A DNA stretch of 64,000 nucleotides from a virus (Duplodnaviria; Heunggongvirae; Uroviricota; Caudoviricetes). Both the position numbers and the translations under genes were made by a program. This document shows positions 11,497-51,832 of this stretch, one piece after another; within the stretch, counting starts at the first letter, position 1; the number at the start of each line of letters is the position of its first letter. Below the pieces are notes generated by a model. The model was given only the letters and a program-made list of their open reading frames with translations. It made no database searches and was not told the origin of the DNA. The stretch covers positions 114,756 to 178,755 of the IMG/VR virus record IMGVR_UViG_3300032030_000012; one strand, 5' to 3'.

Positions 11497-11507
11497 TAAT
11501 ATTTTAC
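11497..11507 (-). promoter_or_regulatory. conserved phage promoter-like motif TAATATTTTAC (coding strand GTAAAATATTA)
   Basis: Exact copy about 30 nt upstream of the start at 11469. Confidence 0.45.
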
Positions 11508-11527
11508 TAAATTAAGAAAGAAGTTCT

Positions 11528-13423
11528 TTAATTAGAACTTCTATTTAAAAGTAACCTGATAGTAGTTTCACTAGCTACATTAAGAGTATTGATATCATCT
11601 ACTGTTTCTCTATTTCTACATCTAGATATTCTAAGTAGATATAAATTCTTTTTAGGTCTAGTTAAAGCTACATATTGTAAATTTCTTTCTTGTTGCTGAG
11701 CATCTTCAGTTTGAGAACCATATACATAAGGAAATCTAGGATAATCATAAATATATACATTATCAGCTTCTCCACCTTTCATCATATGTATAGAAGATAA
11801 AATAGGAGCTTCTTTATTTATATTTCCTTTTAAGAAAGAATCTATATATACTTCTAAATCTTTTACAAGTATAGAACTACAATTTTCTTTATAATTATTA
11901 ATCAAAGATTCTACTACATCATAATATTCAGCAAGAACATTATCTTGCATACCATCATATACAAAAGAATAATCTCCTTCTTCTTTATATTCTTTCATGC
12001 AATCTAATAAATAATCAACAGTATAATTAGATTTAGAAATAGGTTTCTTTAATGTCTTAGCATTTTTAACTAATCTTTTAAAAGTATTTTGCATATATTC
12101 CCTATCAGATTTAGATATTTTCTCATCACTTTGTTTCCAATCGATATTTGCTTCTTCACATAATCTATATAACTCTTTTTCAACATTTAAACATTGATTA
12201 TATCTTTTTATATATTCTTTAATAACTCTTTTAATTTCATTTACAATAGTTGTTACCATTTCAGTATTTTTAAATTTAACTGAAATCTTATCATCAAGTA
12301 CTAATTTTTTATATAATCTAACTAAATCATTATTTCTTCTTGCAAGAATTACATCATTTGCTTTAATATTTTTAGTTAAATCAATTTCATCTAAAAATTT
12401 AACTTCTCCTTTATCATCTCTTTTATGGTTCCAATCGATTTCAGGTACTATATCTTGAGCTACTTTAATTACATTTTCAGGACATCTATAACAAATATTT
12501 AAAGGTAATTCATTTAAAGCAAAATTCTTTTTTAAATTTTTAATAGATTTAGTATCAGCTCCAGCAAAAGCATAAATACTTTGTTTTTCATCTCCTACTG
12601 CAATTAATCGAGTATCAAAATTAATAAGTAGTTTTAAAAATAATTGTTGTAATACTGATAAATCCTGAGTTTCATCAACTAATACAAAATCTAAATATTG
12701 ACGAGTAGTCCAAGGAACATTCATTTTATATAAACAAGGAAAATATATCATATCAGTATAACCAACTCTATAAATAGGTTTTCCAAAAGAATCTAGTTCA
12801 GGATTTTCAAATTCATATTTAATTTTATCAATTGCTTCTTCTATAACTTCAGGAAATTTTCTTAATCCTAAATCATCCCAATTTTTCAAATTCCAACATA
12901 AACGAGGAGCTAGTTTATATATCTCATCATAATCATGATAATTAACATTATATAATCTAGAATAATTAACCATTTGAGATATTTCTCTTAATACATCTCC
13001 AAGTAAATCTTTAAAATCAGAATCAGATAATTCAGCATTAGCTATTCTGAATTCAGTATCACATTTTTGAGCAAATGAATTTTGTACCCATTCTTTAATC
13101 CTATCATCATGCTGATCTACTTCAATTATATAATTCTCTCCATGTTTCTTATATAAATAAGATCTTAAAAAAGTTAATCCTAAACTATGTAGAGTTTTAA
13201 TTTGTACATTATCAGAAATAATTCTAGTTTGTAACTCTTGTACAATTGATTTATTAAATGCTAAAAATAAACATTTTTTATCTTGAGCAATAATTTTATC
13301 AGCTATTAAACATAATGTAGATGTTTTACCAGATCCAGCTTTTGCATCTACAAGTAAATTTCCATTATTACTATCTATATAATTCAAAATATTTTTTTGA
13401 TAATTACTTGGTTCAAATGACAT
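11528..13423 (-). CDS. UvrD/PcrA-like superfamily-1 DNA helicase
   Basis: Walker A AGSGKTSTL, VLVDETQD, YRCPENV, VALTRPKKNLYLL. Confidence 0.85.
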   Translation of the reverse strand: MSFEPSNYQKNILNYIDSNNGNLLVDAKAGSGKTSTLCLIADKIIAQDKKCLFLAFNKSIVQELQTRIISDNVQIKTLHSLGLTFLRSYLYKKHGENYIIEVDQHDDRIKEWVQNSFAQKCDTEFRIANAELSDSDFKDLLGDVLREISQMVNYSRLYNVNYHDYDEIYKLAPRLCWNLKNWDDLGLRKFPEVIEEAIDKIKYEFENPELDSFGKPIYRVGYTDMIYFPCLYKMNVPWTTRQYLDFVLVDETQDLSVLQQLFLKLLINFDTRLIAVGDEKQSIYAFAGADTKSIKNLKKNFALNELPLNICYRCPENVIKVAQDIVPEIDWNHKRDDKGEVKFLDEIDLTKNIKANDVILARRNNDLVRLYKKLVLDDKISVKFKNTEMVTTIVNEIKRVIKEYIKRYNQCLNVEKELYRLCEEANIDWKQSDEKISKSDREYMQNTFKRLVKNAKTLKKPISKSNYTVDYLLDCMKEYKEEGDYSFVYDGMQDNVLAEYYDVVESLINNYKENCSSILVKDLEVYIDSFLKGNINKEAPILSSIHMMKGGEADNVYIYDYPRFPYVYGSQTEDAQQQERNLQYVALTRPKKNLYLLRISRCRNRETVDDINTLNVASETTIRLLLNRSSN

Positions 13424-13649
13424 AATATTTACAACTCCTTTATTTTATACTATTTATAACAACTCATATTATTAAATTTGCTACTACTATTATATTACAG
13501 TTTTGAAAAAATGGAACGAGATTTATTAAAATAAATTTAGGAAAATTTTTGGATCTGAGCAATCCATTGAAATAAAAAGCTTCGAATACAGTTTTTTAAG
13601 AATTTTTGGACAAATAGTCAGTATATTTATAAGGCAAAACTCTATATAC

Positions 13650-13770
13650 TCTATATAATGATATAGTCATATACTTATATAATGATATCACTCAATTCTC
13701 ATTTCTGTTTCAGATTCAGATCTCTTTATCAAATTTCAGATTCAATTATCTGTTTCAGATCTGTTCTGGA
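13650..13770. repeat. iteron-like short direct repeats (tatataatgatat x2; tgtttcagat x3)
   Basis: Seen directly in the ORF-free region. Confidence 0.5.
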
Positions 13771-13794
13771 AATGATTTTTGACAGATTTGTTAA

Positions 13795-14400
13795 ACACCA
13801 CCAGACAACCGATTTATAACACGGACAGCATCCACTTCGTGTGACGCTCGTGTTTTGGAAGCAGAAGTCACCTTACCCTCCTCTCTAAAATCAATAAAAA
13901 ATTGACGTTAGAGATGAGAGTAAAGTGCCCGAAAAAATAGTGAGAACCTGGCTGGGGTGCTCACTAGAACAATTTTCATAACGCGTGATTACGCGCTTCG
14001 TATAGCTTTCGGCCACATGCTAGATACTACTTCCTCACCAAGACTCGCTTATATGAGGGTCCTATAAAGATTTTACAAGTAAGTCGGTTACTGTGATTAT
14101 ATATCTTACTTGTAGTAATTTGTATTTCGTTTCTAGTTACCTGCTATCATCTATTTACTTGATTCATACTGTGTTCAAATATATTGGAAATTACATTTGA
14201 ACAACTGAGGTAATTAATATTTGCTTATGAACTTTCTATATATGCATCGCACGAGGACGGGATTAAATTTGTTCGCAGCTCGCGAGATGACTCTTTAACA
14301 GCCGACAAAACAGCACAACCGAACCGCGCCTGGTACTTGGAGATCGAACTTAGACAAGTTGAAATACCTTTCCATCGGTCAAATTCAATTATTATTATTT
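13795..14400. other. GC-elevated ORF-free core with many local hairpins (candidate structured RNA or acquired fragment; class unknown)
   Basis: No ORF of 60 aa or more in six frames; GC visibly higher than flanks; stems such as gtgag...ctcac and gcgtgattacgc. Confidence 0.3.
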
Positions 14401-14944
14401 ATATAAAAATAGTATCGCAACTTCTATATAAACTTTAATAATATCTTTTATATCTCCCTTAACGTTGTGTTGCCAGTTATTTATTCAATCTAAATAGATT
14501 AAGTAGATTTCCTATCAACTACTCCTCAATATGCTTTCCCATATATCTTGATTATGCTGTATGAAATTATATTAATATTTCATTCCCTATAATCTTGTTT
14601 TGAATCAATTATAGTTTAAATAGAACTACTTTAAAAATATAGTTTATCTGATGTGTTATACAAACCGTTACAAGAGTTCCTTTTTATAAATGTATACCTC
14701 GACTCTTTTGCACGTTAATTTTTTACTTTATAGATTTTATCCCAGGGCAAGGGACACCAGATTTCTGTGATCAGCCTAAGAGGCATTTCCGTTACGAGTT
14801 ATTCTAAAGGAGGGATTAGCTTAAATATCAAAACTTATTTATCTAATTTTCATATGACGCTCTAGAACCTACTTTTAATGTTATATAAAACTATCTATAT
14901 CTGGTCATAGATAGAATTTTAATTTACTAGATATTTATAACATC

Positions 14945-14993
14945 TTTTTAAAACAAATTAATAATCATGTGAAATTTTTATCACATGATTATT
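14945..14993 (-). terminator. rho-independent terminator after the 5'-3' exonuclease gene
   Basis: 13-bp perfect stem aataatcatgtga/tcacatgattatt with 8-nt loop and downstream T-run on minus. Confidence 0.6.
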
Positions 14994-15009
14994 ATAACAT
15001 CTTAATTTT

Positions 15010-16116
15010 TTAATTTTGATTAAATCTTTCAAATAATCCTCCACGAATAATTTTATTATCTTCTCTAATTGGTAGAGATTTATCAAGATCTTCTATTTTT
15101 AAATGATCTATAAGATGAGAAATTCTATTATATAAAGCTTCTACATCTAGAGTTTTAATTTCTAAATCATCTAGAATAGAATAAATCTGAGGTCTATTAT
15201 TATTTTCAAAAGGCATACAGTTACTATAAATAGTTGTTTTAATATTATTGATTACATCATCAGTAATATCATCATCAATTAATTTCAAGTTTGTAAGTAA
15301 TATATTAGTTAAAAATTGATCTTCATTAAAATTAAGATAAGCTTTTCTTTTAGGTACATCCATTTCTTTACATGCTTTATCTAATTCTTCTTCTGTTTTA
15401 GGAAAAGCTCTTTCTTTATCTATCAAAGAACTAAATAACTTATATAAACCAGGAGCTGTTTTTTCTCCTACTTGAAAACATGCAGAAGGAATATTATCTG
15501 AAGGATCTCCTACAATACACTTACAACCTATATATTCATCTATATTCATATTCTTTTCTTTAAGAGTATTTATATCCCACATTTCTTCTTTCATAGGTCT
15601 TCTTACTTTACATCTTCTATTATCATCTTCATATACAAGTTGTATTAAATCTTTATCATCTGAAACAACAATACTATTTCTACTCATTTTAGAAAGAATG
15701 CAAATTAAATCATCACCTTCCCAATCATTAATTCTAATTGTAGGTATTCCAAATAAAGGTAATAATTGCATTAAATCATTTCTTTGAGTACTATATTCTC
15801 TTCTAAATTCCAAATCAAATAATTGTTCTTCAGTTAAATCTTCATCTTTACATTCAAGTAAAGCTTGTCTTTCAATATTCTTTTTATAATTAGGATATAT
15901 TTCAAGTCTTCTTCTTGATAATCCTCCATCAAATATTACAACTGGATAGAAATTCCAATCCTTAGATTCTTTAATAATAGATCTAAGCACTCCATATATT
16001 CCACCTGTTCTTTTACCTTTAGAGTTTATCATTTCCCATTGATTTGGTTGACTAAGATTTCGATGTAGTAAATATGATCCATCAAATATTAGAACTCTAT
16101 TAAAGTTAATATCCAT
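15010..16116 (-). CDS. 5'-3' exonuclease / flap endonuclease (PIN-like, T4 RNase H / Pol I 5'-exo family)
   Basis: N-terminal VLIFDGSYLLHRN, acidic clusters, helix-hairpin-helix-like region. Confidence 0.75.
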   Translation of the reverse strand: MDINFNRVLIFDGSYLLHRNLSQPNQWEMINSKGKRTGGIYGVLRSIIKESKDWNFYPVVIFDGGLSRRRLEIYPNYKKNIERQALLECKDEDLTEEQLFDLEFRREYSTQRNDLMQLLPLFGIPTIRINDWEGDDLICILSKMSRNSIVVSDDKDLIQLVYEDDNRRCKVRRPMKEEMWDINTLKEKNMNIDEYIGCKCIVGDPSDNIPSACFQVGEKTAPGLYKLFSSLIDKERAFPKTEEELDKACKEMDVPKRKAYLNFNEDQFLTNILLTNLKLIDDDITDDVINNIKTTIYSNCMPFENNNRPQIYSILDDLEIKTLDVEALYNRISHLIDHLKIEDLDKSLPIREDNKIIRGGLFERFNQN

Positions 16117-16243
16117 ATTTAATTCCTCCTAAAATCAATTTTAATAGCTTTTTTATCATTAAGCATAAAATAATATATCTTTAATTAAAACAACTTAATA
16201 TATTATAAATATGCTTCAATTAAAGATATATATTATAACATTT

Positions 16244-16876: not shown

Positions 16877-16891
16877 AATAAAACCCTCTAT

Positions 16892-17458
16892 TTATACAAT
16901 TCTGTTCATTTTAACAAGTAATTTTCTATCTTCTTCAGGTAATTCTTCTTTTTCTATTAATTCTTGTAATTTTTCAGTATCTCTATATTTCCAATCCATA
17001 ATTTCGTAAATTGAAAAATATGATAAAATTTTAAATTTATCTTTGCCTTTTTCTAAATTATTTAGAAATAAAGCCACTTGTGTTTTTAATCTATTTGTAG
17101 GTACATTATATCTTTTACTAATTTCTTGTATTCTTAGATCTACAACTTCATTATTGCCTTCATTTAAAAATATATCAAATACTTCTTCCATGAATGCAAT
17201 TGCTACTTTTTCAGACCAGTCATTTTTACCTCTTTTATAATTAATGTCTTCAAGAGTTTTAACTATAGTTCTTCTTACAGAAATGTTAGAAAAATAAGAT
17301 GTTGTTATAAACAAATCTTTATCTTCTTCACAAACAACATTAGGCTGAAAATGACCATAGGTTTGAATATAGTCTTCTAAAGATATTCTCTTTAATAACC
17401 TCCTTCCTAATTTTTCAAATTTGTTAGAAAATCTGTTAATTGTTTTACAACTATCCAT
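16892..17458 (-). CDS. hypothetical protein
   Basis: ORF track. Confidence 0.5.
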   Translation of the reverse strand: MDSCKTINRFSNKFEKLGRRLLKRISLEDYIQTYGHFQPNVVCEEDKDLFITTSYFSNISVRRTIVKTLEDINYKRGKNDWSEKVAIAFMEEVFDIFLNEGNNEVVDLRIQEISKRYNVPTNRLKTQVALFLNNLEKGKDKFKILSYFSIYEIMDWKYRDTEKLQELIEKEELPEEDRKLLVKMNRIV

Positions 17459-17473
17459 TTTTCTATACCTCCT

Positions 17474-17743: not shown

Positions 17744-17749
17744 TCTCCT

Positions 17750-18301: not shown

Positions 18302-18329
18302 ATTTTAAAAACCTCCTATATACTATAAC

Positions 18330-18370
18330 AACTTGAAAAAATAAAAGTCTATATATGAATATAGACTTTT
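18330..18370 (-). terminator. rho-independent terminator
   Basis: 12-bp stem aaaagtctatat/atatagactttt plus T-run. Confidence 0.6.
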
Positions 18371-18389
18371 AATAAAATAGTATAGGAAT

Positions 18390-18560
18390 TTACATAGTAG
18401 GGTCTAGTAAAGGACGATCATATTCATATTTAACACAATACATACTTGTTTTATCACGGTATACATTTACAGTAAATATATTCTGACTACACTCATTTCT
18501 AAAAACACAATATTTACAAATTGATTTATTATATAATTCTTTATCCTTATTCTCACCCAT
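18390..18560 (-). CDS. small Cys-rich hypothetical protein (56 aa)
   Basis: Unlisted ORF MGENKDKELYNKSICKYCVFRNECSQ...; RBS aaggagaatctattATG. Confidence 0.3.
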   Translation of the reverse strand: MGENKDKELYNKSICKYCVFRNECSQNIFTVNVYRDKTSMYCVKYEYDRPLLDPTM

Positions 18561-18580
18561 AATAGATTCTCCTTTATCAG

Positions 18581-18826
18581 TTATATTTTTAATAGCTCTG
18601 ATATTAGAGATTCTATTGAATTTTTTAATGAATCATAATCTTTATGATTTTTTAATATATCTTTTAATTGAGCTGCAACAGCATCTTTTCTAATTGAAAA
18701 TCTTAATAATTCTTCATTTTTAACAAATTGATCTCTAACAACAGTTAGTTGATGTACTAATTTGTTACCTTCTTCAATAATATCTTTATCTACTTCCATG
18801 ATAACACTCCTTATATTGCTCTGCAT
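18581..18826 (-). CDS. hypothetical protein (likely true start at 18800, after RBS AAGGAGTG)
   Basis: ORF track. Confidence 0.5.
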   Translation of the reverse strand: MQSNIRSVIMEVDKDIIEEGNKLVHQLTVVRDQFVKNEELLRFSIRKDAVAAQLKDILKNHKDYDSLKNSIESLISELLKI

Positions 18827-18981
18827 TTTTTAATCTTAGAAAGTGGAAATCCTCTTCTATAAGCTTCTTTCTTTTCTTTAATTTTAGCGAGTCGTTCCTT
18901 GTACTTTAAATAAGTTTCACAGGTTGCATGACAACCAGGCTTTCTATTTGTACAATTATAACAACTTGCTCCAGACAACAC
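18811..18981 (-). CDS. small zinc-ribbon-like hypothetical protein (GTG start, 56 aa)
   Basis: Unlisted ORF ...SCYNCTNRKPGCHATCETY...; GAAGAAGGTGG RBS directly after a TAATATTTTAC motif. Confidence 0.3.
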   Translation of the reverse strand: MLSGASCYNCTNRKPGCHATCETYLKYKERLAKIKEKKEAYRRGFPLSKIKKCRAI

Positions 18982-18997
18982 TGACCACCTTCTTCAT

Positions 18998-19008
18998 TAA
19001 TATTTTAC
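18998..19008 (-). promoter_or_regulatory. conserved promoter-like motif TAATATTTTAC
   Basis: Exact copy upstream of the small ORF 18811..18981. Confidence 0.45.
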
Positions 19009-19013
19009 AATTA

Positions 19014-19565: not shown

Positions 19566-19566
19566 A

Positions 19567-21432
19567 TTATACTAAATCTTCTCCTTCTATATTTGTCAAA
19601 TCTACTTGAGGAGCTAATTCAGGTTCTTCTGTTTCTTCAGTAGAAGCTGGAGCTTCTTCATTATCTAAATCAATGTCAAAATCAAATTTTGTTGAAGGAC
19701 CTCCTCCAGCAGATAATTCATGTTCATCATCTGGTTCTGATGCATTTCCTTCAATAGGATTTCCTGCATCATCAGTTTCAGTTTCTAATTCTTTTAAATG
19801 CTCATTAATAATATCTACTATATCTTGTTGATTTAGATATTTACTTAACCATTCTAAGATCATATCAAGTTTAACTTCTTCATCAACATTTTCTAATCCA
19901 TTCATCAATGATAAAATATCATTAACATTTCTGATTTTAGTTTGTAATAATTCATCACGTCTATTATCCTCTACTGTAATAATTGGAGTTAATTTAACAT
20001 CAAAATTATTTACAACTTTCTTTCCTAGACCATCACCTAATGCAAATATATTAATAAGATTTTTTAAAGCAGATGTTAAAGCTACTTGACCTCTTTTAAT
20101 ACGTCTAGCATAAGTAGTGTTCATTTCTGTTAAAGATCCTCCATTAGAAAGACCAGAACCATCCATATCAGCACCTAACATAGCTTTAGGTATTAATAAA
20201 GATCCATATACTTTGTTTTCAGAATCTTCAACATCTCCAAGATTTCCAATATCTACATCTCCACCTATATTAACAGTTGATATAGTACCTTTTCCATCTT
20301 TAGTTGTAGTATAAATAATATTTTCAATAGGTTGAGCTCCAGCTCTACTTTGTATAGTTCCAGCTTCTTTATTAAGAATAATTTGTTGTTCAATCTGCTG
20401 TTTAATTTCTTGAAGTTTTCTTCTTTTTTGAGCTTCAGGCATATCACCTAATTCAACTTGAATTACTCTTGTTATAGAAGATTTTGTTATTCTTTCAAGT
20501 AAAACTGATTCTTCTTTTAATTTTAATGTTTGATAAGCTCCATATACATTTTCTAATACTGATTGACCTGTTTTAACTTGAAAAGATAAAGCAGCGCCTG
20601 TTCCTTCATAAGCAGATCCATCTATTGTTCCATCATCTAAAGTTTTATCAACTTCTGTTTCTTTTATTAATTGGAATTTTTCAGGAAATCTATTTATATT
20701 AGGAGATAAACAAATATGTATAAATTTTGTTGGATTTAATATATTTATATCTGTTACAGATCCTGAATATAAATATGTATTATTTTCTAATGTATTTTCC
20801 ATATCATCATGTGATCTTATGAATCCAGCTGTTTTACCTCTATATTGTAAATCATAAACTTCAGCTGAATTAGGAACTTTTTCTATATATCTTTCTAGTT
20901 TAGCTCCTTTAATTGTTTTTTGAGTTCTTACATGAGGATCATGTTTTGTTGGTTCTAATATTAAAGATGGTTTAGTATCATTAACTGATGTATTTTCAAA
21001 TGTTTCTAGATATACATCTCCATATAACCACATACAATAAGCCCATGACCAAATATTTTGTTCAACATTTAAATCATCTAAAAGTTTATTACCATAAGCA
21101 GCTACATCAGAATCTTCTGATTCTACCCAAACAATTTTACCATCTGAGTTATATTGAACTGTATCATTAGCATACATTTCTACAGCAGCACCAATTCTAC
21201 CATCTGCTACCATTTCTTCAAATACTTTATATTTAGTATTACGGTCACCTTTTAGAGTAGTAATTTTAGTTAAATCACTAAGATCAATTCTTTTTCCAGA
21301 TTCTGTAGCTGTTTCCATCTGATTAGGAAGTGAATGTCTTTCATCAGTAAATTCAGTTACATCTTCAGGAGCTTGTTTAGGTATTACTCTTACTCTAAAG
21401 ATTCCTTCTCTTAATCTATCAAATACACCCAT
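19567..21432 (-). CDS. putative portal protein
   Basis: 621 aa; size and very acidic C-terminal tail typical of portals; assignment not verified. Confidence 0.4.
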   Translation of the reverse strand: MGVFDRLREGIFRVRVIPKQAPEDVTEFTDERHSLPNQMETATESGKRIDLSDLTKITTLKGDRNTKYKVFEEMVADGRIGAAVEMYANDTVQYNSDGKIVWVESEDSDVAAYGNKLLDDLNVEQNIWSWAYCMWLYGDVYLETFENTSVNDTKPSLILEPTKHDPHVRTQKTIKGAKLERYIEKVPNSAEVYDLQYRGKTAGFIRSHDDMENTLENNTYLYSGSVTDINILNPTKFIHICLSPNINRFPEKFQLIKETEVDKTLDDGTIDGSAYEGTGAALSFQVKTGQSVLENVYGAYQTLKLKEESVLLERITKSSITRVIQVELGDMPEAQKRRKLQEIKQQIEQQIILNKEAGTIQSRAGAQPIENIIYTTTKDGKGTISTVNIGGDVDIGNLGDVEDSENKVYGSLLIPKAMLGADMDGSGLSNGGSLTEMNTTYARRIKRGQVALTSALKNLINIFALGDGLGKKVVNNFDVKLTPIITVEDNRRDELLQTKIRNVNDILSLMNGLENVDEEVKLDMILEWLSKYLNQQDIVDIINEHLKELETETDDAGNPIEGNASEPDDEHELSAGGGPSTKFDFDIDLDNEEAPASTEETEEPELAPQVDLTNIEGEDLV

Positions 21433-21448
21433 TTAGCATACTCCTTTA

Positions 21449-22100: not shown

Positions 22101-22111
22101 TAATATTTTAC
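22101..22111 (-). promoter_or_regulatory. conserved promoter-like motif TAATATTTTAC
   Basis: Exact copy upstream of the start at 22068. Confidence 0.45.
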
Positions 22112-22151: not shown

Positions 22152-23006
22152 TTATACTATTTCACCATTTATTTCATCAACTTTATCAATAACTTCCTGA
22201 TCTATATCTTTTCCTGGATCTAAATCTTTAAGTTCAATAATTCTATCTCTTATTTCCATTACAGCGGCATCTACCAAAGCTTGTGTTGTATCAGATCTAC
22301 CATATTCATATATAGCAGGTGATTTTAAAGTATTACAAGCAGCCCTTAAAGTAGGATATAATTCTGCAAATCTATCTAATAACTCATTCATAGATTCTCT
22401 TAAATCTACTTTATCTAATTCTTCATAAGGTTGGTTTTGAGAATCAACAGAAATAACAGATATAGTCCAGTTGACTTCAATAACACTGTCTGCATCTTTT
22501 TTAATAGGTTCAAAAGTTATTCTAAATAAACAGTTATTACCATTTTCTCCTGAGAATAATCCGGCTTCTGCTATTTTTTCTCCTTGATATAATTCTTCAG
22601 GTAAATATGTAACAATAACAAGTTGTACATAACTTTGAGTTGATCTATTAACTATTGTATTTCTCTCTGGTAAAGCTATTCTAGGAGATAATTCACTTAA
22701 TAACCTAGTATCATTAATTGATACTTCTGTAGTTATACCAGGAGGAGTTTGTGAAGTAGCAGAATTAGTACCTAGACCAAGATATCTAGGAATCCAATCA
22801 TATGATACTAAATAAGATTGTGTAGGATTAAATTCACCATTTAACCATTTAACTAATCCCATTAATTGCATCTTTAAACATCTGTTATGACCTCTACGCT
22901 CTTCAATAATTGCACCTGTATATTTATTTCTTTTAGTAACTTTAACGTTAACACCTACAGAGAATCCTGCATCTTCTATGCTAAAACTTCCATTACTCAT
23001 GTCCAT
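22152..23006 (-). CDS. hypothetical (structural?) protein
   Basis: ORF track. Confidence 0.5.
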   Translation of the reverse strand: MDMSNGSFSIEDAGFSVGVNVKVTKRNKYTGAIIEERRGHNRCLKMQLMGLVKWLNGEFNPTQSYLVSYDWIPRYLGLGTNSATSQTPPGITTEVSINDTRLLSELSPRIALPERNTIVNRSTQSYVQLVIVTYLPEELYQGEKIAEAGLFSGENGNNCLFRITFEPIKKDADSVIEVNWTISVISVDSQNQPYEELDKVDLRESMNELLDRFAELYPTLRAACNTLKSPAIYEYGRSDTTQALVDAAVMEIRDRIIELKDLDPGKDIDQEVIDKVDEINGEIV

Positions 23007-23031
23007 TTTCCTTTCATATTATTTATTCAAT

Positions 23032-23181
23032 ATCTTCGCGGTTATAAGATTCTTGGAATATAACTCTATCTGCTCCAAATATTTCTTTAAGTTTTTGTCT
23101 ATTAATGACTACTACATACTTTCCTGAATCATCATAATATCCATAGCTTAAAATGTCGTCTTTCTTAATCATATCACTCAT
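23032..23181 (-). CDS. small hypothetical protein (49 aa)
   Basis: Unlisted ORF MSDMIKKDDILSYGYYDDSGKYVVVINRQ...; RBS ggaggtag; TAATATTTTAC motif 30 nt upstream. Confidence 0.35.
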
Positions 23182-23214: not shown

Positions 23215-23225
23215 TAATATTTTAC
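23215..23225 (-). promoter_or_regulatory. conserved promoter-like motif TAATATTTTAC
   Basis: Exact copy upstream of the small ORF 23032..23181. Confidence 0.45.
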
Positions 23226-23284: not shown

Positions 23285-23962
23285 TTACCATACTTGATTA
23301 TGATATTGATTATGGGTTCCTTTATTAATAGCTGTAATATGATTAATATTTTCAACTTCAGCAAATCCAACTTTATCTTTATTACTAACTTCGTATCTTG
23401 TACTATCATAAGGAAATTTAGTATGATATTCATATGAATGAACTTGAATTCCATCTATTGTTTGAATAATTTCAGCAGGTACAAGTTCAAGACCACATCC
23501 TGCAGGTCTAACTACTTCTATAAGATCTCTAACCTTAGATAAATTAGCTGGGAAATAAATATATATTTTAACTTTATTTCCATCTTTTTGATACTCAATA
23601 TTAAACATGGACAAAGCTTCAATTTTATCTATTTCACCTAAAGCATTAACAGATAAAGCTGTAGCAAGTCTCATACCTAATTTAGATCCTCTATTTCTAA
23701 TCATATCAGGATAATGTTTAATTATAATTCTATTAGAATCATATGATTCTGAATAATCATATTTATATCCTACATATGAAGCAAGTAAAGGTAATAAATG
23801 ATTTGGACAAGAATCAAAATCAATTAAACTTATCCAATAATCAGCATTTGTTTTAAAATGATTTATTAATAAATCAAATAATTTACAATATGCCTGTACA
23901 TCTCTACTTTGTCTCATAATATAAGGTATAAATGTTTTACTTTCTAATACATTAGTTGACAT
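23285..23962 (-). CDS. hypothetical protein
   Basis: ORF track. Confidence 0.5.
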   Translation of the reverse strand: MSTNVLESKTFIPYIMRQSRDVQAYCKLFDLLINHFKTNADYWISLIDFDSCPNHLLPLLASYVGYKYDYSESYDSNRIIIKHYPDMIRNRGSKLGMRLATALSVNALGEIDKIEALSMFNIEYQKDGNKVKIYIYFPANLSKVRDLIEVVRPAGCGLELVPAEIIQTIDGIQVHSYEYHTKFPYDSTRYEVSNKDKVGFAEVENINHITAINKGTHNQYHNQVW

Positions 23963-23973: not shown

Positions 23974-24741
23974 TCATTTCTTAAATCTATGTAATAACAT
24001 ATTTATAAATCTTAATATTTTTTGCCATATAGTTTGATAAGTATCTATTGTATTTTCTTTTGTTGAAATAGCCCAAGCTGAATCAATAGGATAATCATAA
24101 GGAAGTATAGCTTGACCTTTATCTCCCCAATATTTACCCCAGCTATTTTGAATTATGTAACCATAGGGATTATAACCACAAATTATAATCATATGATATC
24201 CTTTTAATTCACCTTCAGGTTCTTTAATAATATAATTTAAATCATAATCTAAATCATTATAAACTGGAATTGAAATAGGTACTGGAGTATTTTGAAGAAG
24301 ACACTTTTTTATTTCTTCTTCAGTATAAATTCTAGCATATGATTCTATTTTATATTTTTCAGCAATTGGTTTTAATTTATCTATATTCTCATCAACAATG
24401 TCTTTAATTTCTTTCATTTCTTTATTGTGATCAAAATTATCTCTAGGAACATCTCCTATCTTTTGTAAAGTTTTTAATGCTTCTCTAGGATACATTCCTT
24501 GTTCTTGATTATAAGTTATAGGTCTATATCCATATATAAATCCTGTAGACATTTTTTCATTATTAAATTTTTCTAAAAATGTAGCTAAAGAGTGAGCTAC
24601 ACAAGAATTAACAATACCTTGATCTTTAACCTCAGATATTGTTAATTCATATTTCTCAGGAAATTTTGGAGCAGAAACTATTTTCGATTTAAACTTATAA
24701 TCCCTTTTATCTGGTATCTCTTTCTTACTTCCGTAATACAT
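23974..24741 (-). CDS. papain-family (C1A-like) cysteine peptidase
   Basis: QGIVNSCVAHS (Gln/Cys), GYHMIIICGYN (His), NSWGKYWGDKGQAIL (Asn/Trp): the full catalytic signature of papain-like proteases. Confidence 0.7.
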   Translation of the reverse strand: MYYGSKKEIPDKRDYKFKSKIVSAPKFPEKYELTISEVKDQGIVNSCVAHSLATFLEKFNNEKMSTGFIYGYRPITYNQEQGMYPREALKTLQKIGDVPRDNFDHNKEMKEIKDIVDENIDKLKPIAEKYKIESYARIYTEEEIKKCLLQNTPVPISIPVYNDLDYDLNYIIKEPEGELKGYHMIIICGYNPYGYIIQNSWGKYWGDKGQAILPYDYPIDSAWAISTKENTIDTYQTIWQKILRFINMLLHRFKK

Positions 24742-25807: not shown

Positions 25808-25818
25808 TAATATTTTAC
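25808..25818 (-). promoter_or_regulatory. conserved promoter-like motif TAATATTTTAC
   Basis: Exact copy upstream of the start at 25792. Confidence 0.45.
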
Positions 25819-26175: not shown

Positions 26176-28362
26176 CTATATCATATCTTCCATATAATCT
26201 TTTTCAAGTGATGAGCTATCATAATAAAAGTATTGTGTATTTAAATTTCTATATACTGCTATTGAAGTTTCATTATGTGTATAAGAAACTACAATATCAC
26301 TAGTTAATGGTGCTGTAAATTCCATTTCAACTAAACCTGTGATATAATCTATATGTCCTTTTCTAACTAAAACGTTATCACTATTATAAATATCACCGTT
26401 ATTATTATCTCTTAAAGTAGTTTGTCCATTGTTAATTCTTATTATAGCAGATCCTGGTAATATTGATGGATGTTCTAAATAAAAACTATATTTTAAATTA
26501 AGACTAGGATCAGGATCATCTAATATAGGAATTATTTGCTCATATAAACCTGTTAGTTGTTCTTTAGTAATTTCTTCTCCTTCATAATTTACATATTCAA
26601 TAGGTTCTAGATCTACCATTAATATTCTACTATCTACATCAAGAATTGTTTCAATAACTTCTTTATAATTTATTAATGTATTGAAATTAACTTTCTCTAA
26701 AGAATATTTATATCTCAAATTATTATTTATAGTTACTATTATATTTTGTAATTCATCTCTTGATAAAGGAACTTTTGTAAAGAATGTTCCTCTTACTGTC
26801 CAGAAATATTTTTTAATTGATTCAAGATCTACAATAATTGATAAAGGTAATATTTTATAATCATCTAAAGCTGTTATAATAGCATTAGAAAATGTTTCTA
26901 TATCTTCATCTTGGGCTACTTCAGATCTTAATATATATAATTTAACTACGAAACTATCCAAGGTTTCTATTTGACTTACTTTTTGTACCCCAATGAATCC
27001 TGAGTGTTCATAATCACCATTGAAATATGCAGTGAAACAATCTAAATCATCTTCATCAACTCTACCATCTTGATTTGCATCCGCAAGTTGTTGTTGATAT
27101 TCTGTTAAAGGATGAGCTTTTCTATCTTGAATAAATAATGCTACTGCATTCATATCATTTTCATCTATTATTTCACTATATACTACTTGACCATCAACTG
27201 GTTTAGATGTTCTATCCATATTAACATTACCAATTGTCCAAGATACTTCCATACCAGGATCATTTGTTAAGTCTGTTGCTCTAACATTTGCTACTCCCCA
27301 TTCTCTTAATGTAGCTCTTTCAAAATCAGCAAGTGTAATAAGAGTATCCATTGTATTCAAAAACTTAACTGAATTTTTTCTAGCTTCATCTGGAGTTTCT
27401 GGATCATATCCTTCTGAACTATCGTAGTTAGTAAAATGAATAAATCCACTAACATTATATACTGTATTTATATTAGATCCATCTCTGGCCCATATATTTC
27501 CAGTAACTTTCTTTATAGTATTTTCATATATTTGGCCACTTTGACCTTTAGATAATAAATAAAATAATTTAAATCTATTTACATTAAAATTATTCCAATA
27601 ATCTACTAATTCAATATAAGGTCTATCATTAACATCTACACCGAATTCAAATAATCTACCTACATTAGATGTTAAATAAATATTATCTCTTAATTCCCAA
27701 ACTTCATTTTGATCGTCAATAAGAATAATATGATCTTGATCTACATTATCATCAGGTAAATAAATCCTATTATTTATTACATCATCAGCTGTATAATTGT
27801 ATCCGTAAATTGAATGCCAAGGTCTTCCAGCTTCTGGATATGGATTAGCTGAAGTTCTAACAGGTGTTACAGGAATACCTTGAGTTAGAGTAACAACTGT
27901 TTCTAGTCCGTTATTATACATATTAGATGGTAATTCATATGCTTTAGTCATATTACAATAAACGGTTTCATTATCCTCAGTTGCAAAAGTACAAAACATT
28001 GGTAATGTAGCAGCTTGAGTATAAGTATTAATAACATTAACTTGTACTTCAGCTGATTTGTACCATCTCATTTTATATCCAATTAATCTATAAATAGCTG
28101 CTGCATTTTTTCTTTGAGTAACAGAATCAGGATATACTTCTAAAGACTGCATATCTTGAGTATAAAATAACATATCACCTACAATAGCCATCAATTTAAC
28201 TAATATCATACCAGGATCATTTGTATCAGTACTTACCCATTTTTGAGTTATACCAGGTATAGAATTTATTAAATCGTCTAAAATATTGACATAATCTTTA
28301 TCTGTATAATCAATTCTTACAGCACTATAATCTTTCTTTTGAACTTGATTTATACTTGCCAT
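26176..28362 (-). CDS. baseplate J-like (gp6-like) protein, with one dockerin/EF-hand-like loop DANQDGRVDEDDLDCF
   Basis: Size and position next to the gp25-like gene. Confidence 0.45.
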   Translation of the reverse strand: MASINQVQKKDYSAVRIDYTDKDYVNILDDLINSIPGITQKWVSTDTNDPGMILVKLMAIVGDMLFYTQDMQSLEVYPDSVTQRKNAAAIYRLIGYKMRWYKSAEVQVNVINTYTQAATLPMFCTFATEDNETVYCNMTKAYELPSNMYNNGLETVVTLTQGIPVTPVRTSANPYPEAGRPWHSIYGYNYTADDVINNRIYLPDDNVDQDHIILIDDQNEVWELRDNIYLTSNVGRLFEFGVDVNDRPYIELVDYWNNFNVNRFKLFYLLSKGQSGQIYENTIKKVTGNIWARDGSNINTVYNVSGFIHFTNYDSSEGYDPETPDEARKNSVKFLNTMDTLITLADFERATLREWGVANVRATDLTNDPGMEVSWTIGNVNMDRTSKPVDGQVVYSEIIDENDMNAVALFIQDRKAHPLTEYQQQLADANQDGRVDEDDLDCFTAYFNGDYEHSGFIGVQKVSQIETLDSFVVKLYILRSEVAQDEDIETFSNAIITALDDYKILPLSIIVDLESIKKYFWTVRGTFFTKVPLSRDELQNIIVTINNNLRYKYSLEKVNFNTLINYKEVIETILDVDSRILMVDLEPIEYVNYEGEEITKEQLTGLYEQIIPILDDPDPSLNLKYSFYLEHPSILPGSAIIRINNGQTTLRDNNNGDIYNSDNVLVRKGHIDYITGLVEMEFTAPLTSDIVVSYTHNETSIAVYRNLNTQYFYYDSSSLEKDYMEDMI

Positions 28363-28389: not shown

Positions 28390-28400
28390 TAATATTTTAC
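28390..28400 (-). promoter_or_regulatory. conserved promoter-like motif TAATATTTTAC
   Basis: Exact copy upstream of the start at 28362. Confidence 0.45.
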
Positions 28401-49265: not shown

Positions 49266-49422
49266 AATATCTTTATTCTCCTTTCATAAATATTGTTAAT
49301 TCGCACAAAATCATAGTTTAAATCAATTTTTATAGTTATTTAATATAATTCTGCCTATGAATATAAAAACAGAGTTAATCTTTAAATATTTGAGACAAAC
49401 CAATATCTTTGATTAACTCTGT

Positions 49423-49433
49423 TAATATTTTAC
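49423..49433 (-). promoter_or_regulatory. conserved promoter-like motif TAATATTTTAC
   Basis: Exact copy about 160 nt upstream of the start at 49265. Confidence 0.4.
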
Positions 49434-49455
49434 GTTCAAAAATCTTAAAATCTAT

Positions 49456-49495
49456 AAAAAATAAAAAAGCCCGAGAGAAAATCTAAAAACTCTCG
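49456..49495 (-). terminator. rho-independent terminator
   Basis: Stem cgagag/ctctcg with 12-nt loop and T-run on minus. Confidence 0.55.
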
Positions 49496-49754
49496 AACTT
49501 AAACATAAGGATAAATGAAATGAATGTTTAAAAAATATAAACACGAACTATTTATATAGGCCTATTGAGGATTCTAAAACAACTAATCATAATCCTCTGT
49601 AGAATGGACATTACCTTCATATAACATATCTCCCGTACTCATTCGCTGTTATATATATCTACATGATTTTTAATAAGATTAACTATGAGTATATAAGTTC
49701 TTATCTTATTTTAGTTGATTTAAGTATTATTGTAACCTAATACTTTAAGGCAAA

Positions 49755-49823
49755 GAGTAATTAAGGATTCGAACCTTATCTCCTCCGTCGAGGTATTTTT
49801 ATTCCGATTAAACTATCTTACTC
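49755..49823 (-). other. tRNA-like fragment / degenerate tRNA (perfect T-arm taagg-TTCGAAT-cctta and 6/7-bp acceptor; no clean D or anticodon arm)
   Basis: Seen directly; I could not fold it as a canonical cloverleaf. Confidence 0.3.
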
Positions 49824-49839
49824 ATATATTAATAACATC

Positions 49840-50016
49840 TTATCTTCCGAAAATTATTGTTTTTATAGATTCACTAATACAAAACCCTAAATAAGCTGTA
49901 CCCAATAAAATTAACAAAGGTAAAGATATTATAAAAGACACTAAACTCATTAATAGTATCTCTATAAAATAAAATATATTTACTAATATATCTAATAAAA
50001 ATTTCACATACATCAT
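49840..50016 (-). CDS. small hydrophobic membrane protein (58 aa)
   Basis: Unlisted ORF MMYVKFLLDILVNIFYFIEILLMSLVSFIISLPLLILLG...; RBS agagga. Confidence 0.3.
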   Translation of the reverse strand: MMYVKFLLDILVNIFYFIEILLMSLVSFIISLPLLILLGTAYLGFCISESIKTIIFGR

Positions 50017-50211
50017 TCCTCTATTTTATAATCAAATTCATATACTATAAATCCTTTATCTTGAAGATTATTATAAATCTGCTCTAAGGTTAAGGCTTTA
50101 ATTTCAGGAGATATAGATTTTACTTCTTCTATATCATAAAAACTAAATACATACATACAACTTGCTTTAATAGCTTCTTTAACATAATATTCAGCTCTTT
50201 TATTAGGATTA

Positions 50212-50415
50212 TCATATCCGTAATATAGCTTCTACTTCTACTTGATTATCGTCTTTAGTATTACATATAACATTCATTTTAGTAATTCTATTTATATTTT
50301 CATTTGAAAAATATTTAGCTGGATTATTAAATTGTTTTGCAGTATAAAACCCAATAAAAAAAGCTATAATAAAAATAAGTATTAGTGATAATATTAATAA
50401 TATCTTTTTCTTCAT
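50212..50415 (-). CDS. signal-peptide / lipoprotein-like small protein (may continue by +1 shift into 50013..50231)
   Basis: ORF track; N-terminal KKKILLILSLILIFIIAFF. Confidence 0.45.
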   Translation of the reverse strand: MKKKILLILSLILIFIIAFFIGFYTAKQFNNPAKYFSNENINRITKMNVICNTKDDNQVEVEAILRI

Positions 50416-50435
50416 AATTATCTACTCCTTATTTA

Positions 50436-50834
50436 TTATAACTTCTTTAAAAGTTTATTTGCTTCTCTTAATATAATTCTTCTTTCATTAGTTAATCTAA
50501 CAAATTCAATACATTCTTCTAAATCAGAAAATATTTGATGCTCAAATCTATTTATAAGTTTATCTTTTGATGGAACTTTAATGGCATAATGCCATAAGCC
50601 ATTTTCTGTAGGATGAAAAACTTCATATATTCTGATAATTTCTCCAGTAGCTACAATAGCTTCTAATCCAGATCTTTCTGGTAACATTTTATTATCATAT
50701 GTATATATTTTATCTCCTATATTAAATTTTCTTTTCTTATTTCTATAACAATCTTTACAACAATATTTACTAACCCAATTTGACCAAGTATCTTCATATT
50801 GTTGTTTACAATATCTACATGTTCTTAATGACAT
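50436..50834 (-). CDS. hypothetical protein with N-terminal zinc ribbon
   Basis: CRYC...CCKDC. Confidence 0.5.
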   Translation of the reverse strand: MSLRTCRYCKQQYEDTWSNWVSKYCCKDCYRNKKRKFNIGDKIYTYDNKMLPERSGLEAIVATGEIIRIYEVFHPTENGLWHYAIKVPSKDKLINRFEHQIFSDLEECIEFVRLTNERRIILREANKLLKKL

Positions 50835-51041
50835 TTAATAACCTCGTTCCATATTATAACTAATATTAAAATTATTATTACCTTTTTTCTTTATATTTAA
50901 TAACAATTCTAAGTCTTTATATAACTGAGCAGCTTCTTCATCATTTATATGAAAATGTGAAAATCTACAATCATTATTACCTTTTAAATTTAGAAATATA
51001 ACTCCTTCATCTATAGTAGTACCCATTTCATATTTTATCAT
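50835..51041 (-). CDS. hypothetical protein
   Basis: ORF track. Confidence 0.4.
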   Translation of the reverse strand: MIKYEMGTTIDEGVIFLNLKGNNDCRFSHFHINDEEAAQLYKDLELLLNIKKKGNNNFNISYNMERGY

Positions 51042-51043
51042 AT

Positions 51044-51787
51044 TTAATTTCCTTTCTGTTTATTATTAAATTTAATTACATCTTTTATTAGTTCTATATT
51101 ATATTGATTTGCTATTGCAGGTACATCTTTATTTAAACAATGACTATCCCAGAAAGGAGTATCTTCATATACAAAAGTATGTGAAGGATTTACTCTAGGA
51201 TCTAAAACAAATAATTCTCTTACTTCAGAATAATTAATATCTTCTTCCTTACATATATTATAGAAAGCTTGACAGAAACTTACTTTTGTAGCTAAAAAAG
51301 AATTCTCCATGAATTTTACAGTTTCAGCTACTTTAGATTCTACGGATCTAAATATATGTCTTCCATCATAACAAGGTAATAATATTTGAATTATATCATT
51401 ACAATCTTTTTTATTACCTCCTAAAATTGTAAAATCAAAATAATAATTATTACAATGTTTAGTTCCTCCATAATATTCTGGACTAAAAACAATTCTTTTA
51501 TTTGTTTCTTTAATCAATTTATCAACAGTACCTACAGGACAAGTTGATTTAATACAATAAATTTCACAGTTATAATCATTTATACAATTTTTAACTTCTG
51601 TTATATCTAATACATTATCTTTTAATGGAGTATCAACACATATAAATCCTAAATCATATCTAATATCTTTTATAGTATTTACTTCTGGTTTATATTTATC
51701 TACAATATCAGGATTTAAATCTTTTAATTCATTTGCTAAATTATGACCAACTACTCCATATCCAATTATTAATACATTTTTCACCAA
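51044..51787 (-). CDS. UDP-glucose/GDP-mannose dehydrogenase-family protein, truncated (NAD-binding plus central domain, no C-terminal UDP-binding domain)
   Basis: IGYGVVGHN Rossmann motif, FICVDTP, ENSFLATKVSFCQAFYNICK; TTG start. Confidence 0.6.
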   Translation of the reverse strand: MVKNVLIIGYGVVGHNLANELKDLNPDIVDKYKPEVNTIKDIRYDLGFICVDTPLKDNVLDITEVKNCINDYNCEIYCIKSTCPVGTVDKLIKETNKRIVFSPEYYGGTKHCNNYYFDFTILGGNKKDCNDIIQILLPCYDGRHIFRSVESKVAETVKFMENSFLATKVSFCQAFYNICKEEDINYSEVRELFVLDPRVNPSHTFVYEDTPFWDSHCLNKDVPAIANQYNIELIKDVIKFNNKQKGN

Positions 51788-51821
51788 TAATATCTACCTC
51801 TTTCGTTAAAGTATTATGTAT

Positions 51822-51832
51822 TAATATTTTAC
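51822..51832 (-). promoter_or_regulatory. conserved promoter-like motif TAATATTTTAC
   Basis: Exact copy 35 nt upstream of the TTG start at 51787. Confidence 0.45.

What the first reader, a model, noticed from the sequence alone, without database searches (positions are those of the whole stretch)
11497..51832. Phage-specific 11-15-nt promoter-like motif repeated at least 13 times, mainly upstream of late genes
Exact TAATATTTTAC (coding-strand GTAAAATATTA, extended consensus nTGTAAAATATTA[A/T]TAGnAA) occurs at 11497, 18998, 22101, 23215, 25808, 28390, 35741, 39158, 40801, 42975, 48971, 49423 and 51822. Near-variants occur at 45341, 46578, 58910 and 63706. All lie in intergenic DNA, on the same strand, usually 25-45 nt upstream of an RBS plus start codon. 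The chance expectation for an 11-mer at this base composition is under one copy in the window. The motif is distinct from the host-like TGnTATAAT elements found before early genes (for example 9070, 10118, 13451, 16236, 18327, 39224, 56431). That pattern suggests a phage-encoded sigma factor or activator dependent late (or middle) promoter class.
Basis: seen in the sequence. Interest (0 to 1): 0.6.

Follow-up and report, generated by a model that had tools for sequence, protein, structure and literature searches.

The report
Phage late promoters read by phage sigma
An uncultivated rumen phage of about 200 kb carries one invariant 11-base signal in front of its virion, tail-fibre and lysis genes. 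It is most likely the late promoter read by the phage's own sigma factor, so this is a new example of a well-known kind of phage gene control.

Summary
TAATATTTTAC (GTAAAATATTA on the coding strand) occurs 13 times against 0.49 expected. Every copy is intergenic and on the coding strand. Other pieces of the same phage raise the count to about 26, and relatives whose proteins are only 52-75% identical raise it to 40.

The copies sit in front of portal, baseplate, tail, major-capsid, protease, tail-fibre and lysin genes. Half of them directly follow a terminator hairpin. The conserved block is GTAAAATATTA-n-T-R-R, with no -35 element. A Shine-Dalgarno site can start 2-3 nt after the block. I therefore read TAAAAT as the -10 hexamer, G as -13, ATTA as the discriminator and R as +1.

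Genome walking found a conserved 205-207-aa sigma-70-family protein in this phage family (Pfam Sigma70_r2 above cut-off; PHROG "RNA polymerase sigma factor"). It is unrelated to T4 gp55. One orthologue comes from the same four samples as the window phage. Its gene follows a TGTTATAAT element, and its stop codon overlaps an exact GTAAAATATTA.

Verdict: a phage sigma-dependent late promoter class, a new member of a known kind. Start sites, timing and the sigma-motif pairing remain untested.

The parts
11497..11507 (-). Late-promoter copy (GTAAAATATTAATAG). It lies before the 111-aa and 306-aa genes (11134-11469, 10198-11118) and follows the terminator hairpin at 11542-11519.
18998..19008 (-). 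Late-promoter copy before the small genes 18811-18981, 18581-18799 and 18390-18560. It follows the terminator at 19040-19015 after the thymidine kinase gene. The SD site starts 6 nt after the motif.
22101..22111 (-). Late-promoter copy before the 153-aa and 47-aa genes and the portal gene (19567-21432). It follows the terminator at 22147-22118 and is conserved at the orthologous site in relative L122.
23215..23225 (-). Late-promoter copy before the 52-aa and 282-aa genes (23023-23181, 22152-23000). It follows a hairpin plus T run. A copy also precedes the orthologous 51-aa gene in L122.
25808..25818 (-). Late-promoter copy before the 76-aa membrane protein, the 262-aa protein, the papain-like peptidase (23974-24741) and the P2 gpI-like baseplate gene (23285-23962). 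It follows a hairpin plus T run.
28390..28400 (-). Late-promoter copy before the 728-aa structural-region gene (26176-28362).
35741..35751 (-). Late-promoter copy before the 638-aa dockerin-repeat protein gene (33707-35623), with a 117-nt leader.
39158..39168 (-). Late-promoter copy before the 1100-aa gene (35824-39126).
40801..40811 (-). Late-promoter copy before the baseplate hub gene (39964-40770).
42975..42985 (-). Late-promoter copy before ORFs 42616-42942 and following. It follows the terminator at 43018-42997 after the tail tube gene.
48971..48981 (-). Late-promoter copy with a 185-nt leader. It lies before the 75-aa, 191-aa and 151-aa genes and the head-tail adaptor gene (46584-47336).
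49423..49433 (-). Late-promoter copy followed at once by a 54-nt hairpin plus U run (49369-49422). Further downstream is the acidic 92-aa protein gene (48987-49265).
51822..51832 (-). Promoter copy before the UDP-glucose dehydrogenase-like gene (51044-51787).
46577..46587 (-). One-mismatch variant (TTAAAATATTATTAA) before the 400-aa gene (45347-46549).
45340..45355 (-). Insertion variant (GTAAAATAAATATTAG) lying 15 nt before the tail sheath start codon (43741-45324).
58918..58928 (-). Variant GTAAAATAATAATAG followed by an SD site and ATG, upstream of tRNA-Pro and tRNA-Ser.
63707..63717 (-). Variant GTAAAATAATATTAG before the 188-aa gene (63112-63678).
9073..9081 (-). Context, not part of the motif family. 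This is one example of the second promoter class, TTGTTATAAT (extended -10), here before the SbcD-like gene. Others are at 10118, 13451, 16232, 18327, 56441, 57562 and 62011 (-) and at 39224 (+).

Best explanation
The motif is the core of a phage-specific late promoter class.

Inferred layout on the coding strand:
- G at -13
- TAAAAT as the -10 hexamer (-12 to -7)
- ATTA as an invariant discriminator (-6 to -3)
- n and T at -2 and -1
- a purine at +1
- no -35 element

Proposed cascade:
1. Early in infection, host sigma-A RNA polymerase uses the phage's extended -10 promoters (TGTTATAAT). One of these drives a phage gene for a 205-aa sigma-70-family protein with a clear region 2 and a divergent C-terminal domain.
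2. This phage sigma replaces sigma-A on the host core enzyme.
3. The new holoenzyme starts transcription at the roughly 26 or more identical motif copies. Each sits just downstream of the terminator of the preceding unit and just upstream of an SD site.
4. This switches on capsid, portal, tail, baseplate, tail-fibre and lysis genes.

Shown:
- the motif's copy number, strand and position
- its conservation in relatives
- the gene classes downstream of it
- the lack of a -35 element
- the existence, conservation and promoter context of the sigma gene

Inferred:
- the start site
- late timing
- that this sigma, and not another factor, reads the motif
For: Counts. There are 13 exact copies against 0.49 expected, all intergenic and on the coding strand. 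Window-phage loci hold 26 non-redundant exact copies and the family holds 40, with none on the other strand.

Downstream genes:
- portal, sheath, tube, baseplate and tail lysin
- major head protein and head protease in L135
- tail fibres and lysins

Promoter anatomy. Twenty of 40 copies directly follow a hairpin plus T run, against 5 of 60 random positions. The -35 match is no better than random. An SD site can begin 2-3 nt after the 11-mer. In L140, L141 and L142 a tRNA gene begins 8 nt after the motif.

Conservation. The motif is kept at orthologous intergenic sites in L122, whose portal is 55% identical, while the flanks diverge.

Sigma gene:
- L156:16429-17052 matches Sigma70_r2 at 29.6 bits, above the cut-off of 24.
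- It matches phrog_351 'RNA polymerase sigma factor' at E 3.8e-11.
- PDB matches are to sigma region 2 and to SigA.
- Syntenic orthologues of 62-77% identity are in L157, L158 and L159.
- L159-L162 come from the same four samples as the window phage.
- In L159 the sigma gene has TTGTTATAAT upstream, and an exact GTAAAATATTA overlaps its stop codon.
Against: - There are no transcript data, so neither start sites nor timing are known.
- The sigma gene is not in the window. It is linked to the window phage only through shared samples and synteny, not through a continuous contig.
- The sigma seems to keep a region 4-like C-terminal domain, yet no -35 block is conserved. What that domain does is therefore unclear.
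- Some motif copies precede non-structural genes (11497, 51822, and the gene after sigma), so 'late' may really mean 'middle plus late'.
- Parts of the genome remain unsampled and could encode a second sigma or another factor.
Confidence: 0.72

Rival explanations
1. Host sigma-A holoenzyme reads the TAAAAT hexamer. A phage-made activator or appropriator, not a new sigma, makes initiation independent of -35 and specific for the flanking G and ATTA. This would resemble T4 AsiA/MotA or Thermus phage P23-45 gp39/gp76.
For: TAAAAT matches TATAAT at 5 of 6 positions, including A-11 and T-7. No direct evidence ties the phage sigma to the motif.
Against: The motif lacks both the TG extension that the phage's own sigma-A-type promoters use and any -35 or upstream box where an activator could bind. 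Invariance extends into the discriminator, which sigma and core read, not upstream activators. A conserved phage sigma gene exists in the family, and no other target motif for it was seen.
Confidence: 0.1
2. A T4-type late system: a gp55-like minimal sigma reads the motif, with a gp33-like co-activator and the sliding clamp as activator. This would fit the T4-like portal and baseplate genes.
For: - The portal is Pfam Portal_T4.
- The promoter is a single block without a -35 element, strictly conserved like TATAAATA, and shares AAATA with it.
- The family encodes a clamp and clamp loader close to the sigma gene.
Against: - The T4 gp55 sequence and a gp55-family HMM found nothing among 626 ORFs of the family loci (best E 0.07-0.3).
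- The family's sigma has a canonical Sigma70_r2 region and no similarity to gp55 (hhalign probability 0.3%).
- The consensus differs from TATAAATA at 3 of 8 aligned positions and is longer.
- The clamp is of the beta (DnaN) type, not gp45.
Confidence: 0.06
3. A phage-encoded RNA polymerase reads the motif. It could be single-subunit (T7- or YonO-like) or multisubunit (phiKZ- or AR9-like).
For: Very strict, long, single-block promoters are typical of phage polymerases. Several large ORFs (1100, 804, 798, 655 aa) have no family match.
Against: No RNA polymerase family hit appeared in Pfam or PHROGs for any ORF scanned. No credible catalytic DxDGD motif was found. The 655-aa and 804-aa proteins are acidic and low in complexity. 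A sigma gene implies that the host core enzyme is used.
Confidence: 0.04
4. The motif is not a promoter. It could be an RNA processing or stability signal, or the operator of a DNA- or RNA-binding regulator placed at the start of late transcription units.
For: The position just upstream of SD sites would also suit a translational or processing signal. Several copies are followed by 5' hairpins.
Against: Half of the copies lie just downstream of intrinsic terminators, outside the preceding transcript, so a new start is needed there. One copy lies 8 nt before a tRNA gene. No other candidate promoter is conserved in these gaps. The internal TAAAAT and the spacing to the SD site fit promoter geometry.
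Confidence: 0.05

Closest known systems
phiEco32 gp36-dependent middle/late promoters (single element tAATGTAtA)
   Same: - A phage-encoded sigma-70-family protein redirects the host core enzyme.
- The promoters are a single, highly conserved -10-region block without a -35 element.
- In phiEco32 the start site is 6-8 bp downstream (PMC8948821). The spacing inferred here is the same.
   Different: - The sequence differs (GTAAAATATTA-nTRR) and the block is longer.
- The host is a low-GC Firmicute-type organism and the phage is a roughly 200-kb myovirus.
- This sigma appears to keep a region 4-like C-terminal domain, whereas gp36 lacks region 4 homology.
- Nothing has been tested biochemically here.
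T4 late promoters (TATAAATA; gp55, gp33, gp45)
   Same: - Dozens of near-identical copies of one short -10-region element with no -35 (PMC2988020).
- The copies lie before virion genes.
- The phage has a T4-type portal and baseplate genes.
   Different: - No gp55 homologue was found, and the family's sigma is a canonical Sigma70_r2 protein unrelated to gp55.
- The consensus differs.
- All copies here have one polarity.
Bacillus phage SPO1 gp28 and gp33/34, and Salmonella phage 7-11 gp47 promoters
   Same: A cascade in which an early, host-read promoter drives a phage sigma gene, and that sigma then reads phage-specific promoters before later genes. (The SPO1 case is from my own knowledge. The 7-11 case is from PMC8948821.)
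   Different: Those promoters are bipartite, with conserved -35 and -10 blocks (for example GTAAtg-16-aCTA). Here no upstream block is conserved.
Host-type extended -10 promoters (TGnTATAAT)
   Same: These are also -35-independent, with a near-consensus -10 hexamer. This class is used by the same phage for its non-structural genes and tRNAs.
   Different: The late motif has no TG at -15/-14. It has an invariant G at -13 and ATTA in the discriminator instead.

Membership tests
Phage-sigma-dependent promoters (sigma-70 family, single -10-region element) | The phage genome encodes a sigma-70-family protein | tested here: met
   A 205-207-aa protein matches Sigma70_r2 at 29.6 bits (cut-off 24) and phrog_351 at E 3.8e-11. 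It is conserved and syntenic in four family genomes. One of these comes from the same four samples as the window phage. The gene is not inside the window.
Phage-sigma-dependent promoters (sigma-70 family, single -10-region element) | A conserved element at a fixed short distance upstream of transcription start sites | not testable with these tools
   There are no transcript data. Indirect evidence only: an SD site can begin 2-3 nt after the 11-mer, and a tRNA gene begins 8 nt after it. This places any start site at or just after the motif.
Phage-sigma-dependent promoters (sigma-70 family, single -10-region element) | Over-represented, strand-specific and intergenic, upstream of middle or late genes | tested here: met
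Phage-sigma-dependent promoters (sigma-70 family, single -10-region element) | The holoenzyme carrying the phage sigma initiates at the element | not testable with these tools
   This needs in vitro transcription or genetics.
T4-type late promoters | Consensus TATAAATA | tested here: not met
   The motif is GTAAAATATTA. In the best register only AAATA is shared. TATAAATA itself shows no comparable intergenic pattern: 9 of its 33 coding-strand copies are intergenic.
T4-type late promoters | A gp55 homologue (with gp33) is encoded | tested here: not met
   phmmer and a gp55-family HMM searched against 626 ORFs gave a best E of 0.07-0.3. The family sigma compared with the gp55 profile gave a probability of 0.3%. 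The genome was not fully sampled.
T4-type late promoters | No -35 element | tested here: met
Host sigma-A extended -10 promoters | TG at -15/-14, one base upstream of the -10 hexamer | tested here: not met
   Positions upstream of the G are not conserved (0.2 bits). The phage's other class, TGTTATAAT, does meet this feature.
Bipartite phage-sigma promoters (SPO1 or 7-11 type) | A conserved -35 block at fixed spacing | tested here: not met
   No conserved column and no enriched k-mer were found between -42 and -12. The TTGACA match is no better than random.
Phage RNA polymerase promoters | A phage-encoded RNA polymerase | tested here: inconclusive
   No polymerase family hit and no catalytic motif were found in the sampled ORFs. 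Parts of the genome were not sampled.

The most novel reading that the evidence does not exclude
The phage sigma may read an unusually long single block (-13 to +1, including an invariant discriminator) without any -35 contact, on DNA whose guanines may be replaced by 7-deazaguanine derivatives. The family carries QueC, QueD, QueE and FolE genes next to its polymerase gene. The single invariant G of the motif could then be a modified base that marks phage DNA as the only template for late transcription. That would be a self-recognition mechanism comparable to the uracil requirement of the AR9 polymerase (the AR9 point is from my own knowledge).
Probability: 0.06. Interest if true: 0.75.

Novelty: new member of a known kind. 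Interest (0 to 1): 0.36.

Why it matters
- The motif gives a simple sequence rule for splitting the genes of an abundant, uncultivated rumen phage family into temporal classes. The family has genomes of about 200 kb and is found in well over a hundred assembly blocks.
- It pairs a compact sigma with a strict 11-15-nt promoter. That pair could serve as an orthogonal expression module in low-GC Firmicutes.
- It shows that a phage with T4-like virion genes need not use the T4 gp55 system.
- It does not reveal a new principle of regulation.

Tried and rejected
- **Near-identical DNA in GenBank phages:** none.
- **Generic sigma-70 promoter scan:** not enriched over shuffles in this 27% GC DNA and therefore uninformative.
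- **Sigma, gp55 or RNA polymerase inside the window:** Pfam and PHROGs on all ORFs found nothing.
- **The 188-aa HTH-like protein (16892-17458):** no hits, and it is absent from relative L122. Dropped.
- **Conserved 149-, 228- and 371-aa trio upstream of DnaB:** no similarity to gp55. Dropped.
- **Crude sigma region-4 HMM hits in L135:** these turned out to be HNH homing endonucleases.
- **Pfam scan of 96 ORFs through an alignment:** the output shows only the top 25 families, so it was uninformative for sigma.
- **Large acidic 655-aa and 804-aa proteins in L151:** not polymerases.
- **Streptococcus phage vB_SagM-GXN1, the closest cultured portal relative:** does not have the motif.
- **Full-text search for the motif string:** only unrelated primers.
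- **Rfam on the window and on the ORF-free 13.4-15.0 kb stretch:** only tRNAs.


Full report
**Observation**

The 11-mer TAATATTTTAC occurs exactly 13 times in the window, at the coordinates given, and always on the + strand. Dinucleotide-preserving shuffles give a mean of 0.49 copies and never more than 3. Nearly all genes run on the - strand, so on the coding strand the motif reads GTAAAATATTA. All 13 copies lie in the 13% of the window that is intergenic, and none lies on the other strand. By my estimate, the chance of that placement alone is about 0.066^13.

- 46577: TTAAAATATTA
- 58918 and 63707: GTAAAATAATA
- 45340-45355: an insertion variant, GTAAAATAAATATTAG, lying 15 nt before the sheath start codon

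At 10 sites the motif starts 27-45 nt before a start codon, with a strong Shine-Dalgarno (SD) site in between. Three sites have leaders of 117-185 nt.

**What the window is**

The DNA is 27% GC. The window encodes:
- a T4-type portal (Pfam Portal_T4)
- tail sheath and tube, gp25-like and other baseplate proteins, a baseplate hub and a tail lysin
- GroEL/GroES, SbcCD, a UvrD-like helicase, an RNase H-like exonuclease, thymidine kinase and dUTPase
- seven tRNAs

No GenBank phage is close at the DNA level. The portal is at best 31% identical to those of Streptococcus, Listeria and Bacillus myoviruses. Near-identical sequence is found in rumen metagenomes, for example a 140.8-kb IMG/VR contig. Relatives have contigs of 170-210 kb.

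**Anatomy of the motif**

I collected 40 non-redundant exact copies: 26 from pieces of the window phage and 14 from relatives. They give GTAAAATATTA-n-T-R-R.
- Nothing upstream is conserved. No column and no k-mer stands out between -42 and -12.
- The best TTGACA match at 16-18 nt spacing is no better than at random positions.
- Twenty of 40 copies lie 4-25 nt downstream of a hairpin followed by a T run, against 5 of 60 random positions. Each copy therefore opens a new unit just after the previous unit's terminator.
- The SD site can begin only 2-3 nt after the 11-mer (L033:4587, L033:2476, L122:9321).
- In L140, L141 and L142 a tRNA gene begins 8 nt after the motif.

Any start site must therefore lie at the 3' edge of the block. 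The only layout that fits this is inferred, not shown:
- TAAAAT as the -10 hexamer
- the invariant G at -13
- ATTA as the discriminator
- the conserved purines at +1

**Which genes follow the motif**

Inside the window:
- the portal operon
- baseplate and tail genes
- the 1100-aa, 728-aa and 638-aa structural-region genes
- the head-tail adaptor operon
- variants before the sheath gene and the 400-aa gene

In other pieces of the same phage:
- the head maturation protease
- the major head protein, preceded by two copies (L135)
- at least six tail-fibre genes
- two lysin genes (L027, L030, L147, L149)

A few copies precede genes that are not obviously structural (11497, 51822). The variant GTAAAATAATA lies before non-structural genes at 63707 and L151:8160.

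**A second promoter class**

An unbiased k-mer count of intergenic DNA gave one other enriched word, TGTTATAA. In context it reads (T)TGTTATAAT/AAA/AGT, which is a classical extended -10 element. It occurs:
- before the SbcD-like, PRPP synthetase-like, helicase and RNase H-like genes
- before a tRNA cluster
- before several blocks of small genes
- before the single + strand gene

A generic two-hexamer sigma-70 scan is not informative in DNA this AT-rich.

**Conservation**

Relative L122 (portal 55% identical) keeps the motif at orthologous intergenic sites, while the neighbouring hairpins and spacers have diverged. Loci whose DnaB is only 52-62% identical also carry it. The most similar cultured phage by portal, Streptococcus phage GXN1, lacks it and has a different repeated intergenic word. 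The signal is therefore specific to this family and under selection.

**The trans-acting factor**

Nothing in the window matches a sigma factor, gp55 or an RNA polymerase.

I walked outward from the window in these steps:
1. Beyond the window start lie the ligase, DnaB and primase genes (L129, L133).
2. In relatives the order continues with DNA polymerase A, a QueC/QueD/QueE/FolE cluster, a beta-type clamp, a resolvase, a UvsY-like protein, RecA and three clamp-loader subunits.
3. After one unknown ORF comes a 205-207-aa protein.

That protein is a sigma-70-family member on these grounds:
- It matches Pfam Sigma70_r2 over the whole region-2 model at 29.6 bits, above the curated cut-off of 24.
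- It matches PHROG phrog_351 'RNA polymerase sigma factor' at E 3.8e-11.
- Its best matches among solved structures are sigma region 2 and B. subtilis SigA. A second stretch aligns to the SigA linker just before region 4.
- It is syntenic and 62-77% identical in four genomes.
- It has no similarity to T4 gp55.

The orthologue in L159-L162 comes from ERZ27257202, JGI 3300031992, JGI 3300028833 and SRR9006805. Those are exactly the four samples in which contigs of the window phage were found. It is therefore most likely the window phage's own sigma, although I could not join the contigs.

Its promoter context fits a cascade:
- In L159, TTGTTATAAT and an SD site precede the gene, and an exact GTAAAATATTA overlaps its stop codon and precedes the next gene. 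L156 shows the same arrangement.
- L156 and L158 also have CTAAAATATTA just upstream of the sigma gene. That would allow autoregulation.

**Mechanism**

The best-supported reading runs as follows:
1. Host sigma-A polymerase reads the extended -10 promoters, including the one driving the sigma gene.
2. The phage sigma then directs the host core enzyme to the GTAAAATATTA-nTRR promoters. These lack both the TG extension and a -35 element and so should be poor sigma-A targets.

I put about 0.9 on the motif being a promoter class for virion and lysis genes, and about 0.7 on this sigma being its reader.

Rivals are given lower weights for the reasons stated with each:
- sigma-A plus an appropriator
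- a gp55-type system
- a phage polymerase
- an RNA-level signal

**Comparison with known systems**

- **phiEco32.** The closest functional parallel is the gp36 sigma, which reads the single element tAATGTAtA with starts 6-8 bp downstream (PMC8948821).
- **T4.** The late promoters have no -35 and are read by gp55 with gp33 and the clamp (PMC2988020). This is the closest parallel in genome style. However, its defining features, the TATAAATA consensus and a gp55 homologue, were tested here and not met.
- **SPO1 and phage 7-11.** These promoters are bipartite, and this one is not.

**Verdict**

It is a new promoter consensus and a new sigma in an uncultivated phage family, so a new member of a known kind. 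Interest is moderate: useful for annotation and as a possible orthogonal sigma-promoter pair, but not a new principle.

Noticed in passing
window 33707-35623 (-): A 638-aa protein in the tail/baseplate region carries four Dockerin type I repeats (E 8e-27) and weak EF-hand hits. A weak dockerin hit also appears in the 728-aa protein (26176-28362). The phage virion protein might dock on host cohesins, which hints at a cellulosome-bearing Clostridia host.
   Followed up: no
window 837-3091 (-): The phage encodes GroEL (543 aa) and GroES, with a SpoVG homologue (2461-2787) between them.
   Followed up: partly
window 13424-15009: A 1.6-kb stretch has no ORF and is locally richer in GC. It contains TGTTATAAT followed by a terminator-like hairpin (14994-14959) and a motif variant at 14716. 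No Rfam family matches. Relative L122 has an unrelated 758-aa ORF at this position.
   Followed up: partly
window 49345-49422 (-): The late motif at 49423 is followed at once by a 54-nt hairpin plus U run (-17.2 kcal/mol, z -3.1). This could be a short late RNA or a promoter-proximal terminator. Similar hairpin-plus-T-run structures follow the motif at L149:1251 and L122:8265.
   Followed up: partly
window 40828-42957 (-): Four overlapping, fragmented ORFs (113, 316, 99 and 217 aa) lie between the tail tube and baseplate hub genes, with no family match. This may be a frameshifted or interrupted gene.
   Followed up: no
L135:17036-17572 and L135:19908-20429: The near-identical strain in the 140-kb IMG/VR contig carries two HNH homing-endonuclease genes in the tRNA region that the window lacks. 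In relatives the DNA polymerase A gene is split by HNH and GIY-YIG genes.
   Followed up: partly
L153, L155, L156, L157, L158, L159 (downstream of the DNA polymerase gene): A cluster of QueC, PTPS (QueD), radical-SAM (QueE), GTP cyclohydrolase I and Vut_1 transporter genes, plus an unannotated 310-350-aa protein. This is the pathway to 7-deazaguanine, which suggests modified guanine in the phage DNA.
   Followed up: no
L134 and L146 (Streptococcus phage vB_SagM-GXN1, PQ819873.1): This cultured distant relative has its own repeated intergenic word, TAAACGGTTATA: 11 intergenic regions in the first 50 kb and 5 in the structural region. It probably marks a different phage-specific promoter.
   Followed up: no
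window 39224-39747 (+): The only + strand gene (39271-39726, 151 aa) has its own TGTTATAAT element. It ends at a bidirectional terminator (39718-39747) shared with the converging - strand gene.
   Followed up: no
L156:16378, L158:18947: A variant of the late motif, CTAAAATATTA, lies just upstream of the sigma gene in two relatives. This raises the possibility of positive autoregulation of the sigma gene.
   Followed up: no
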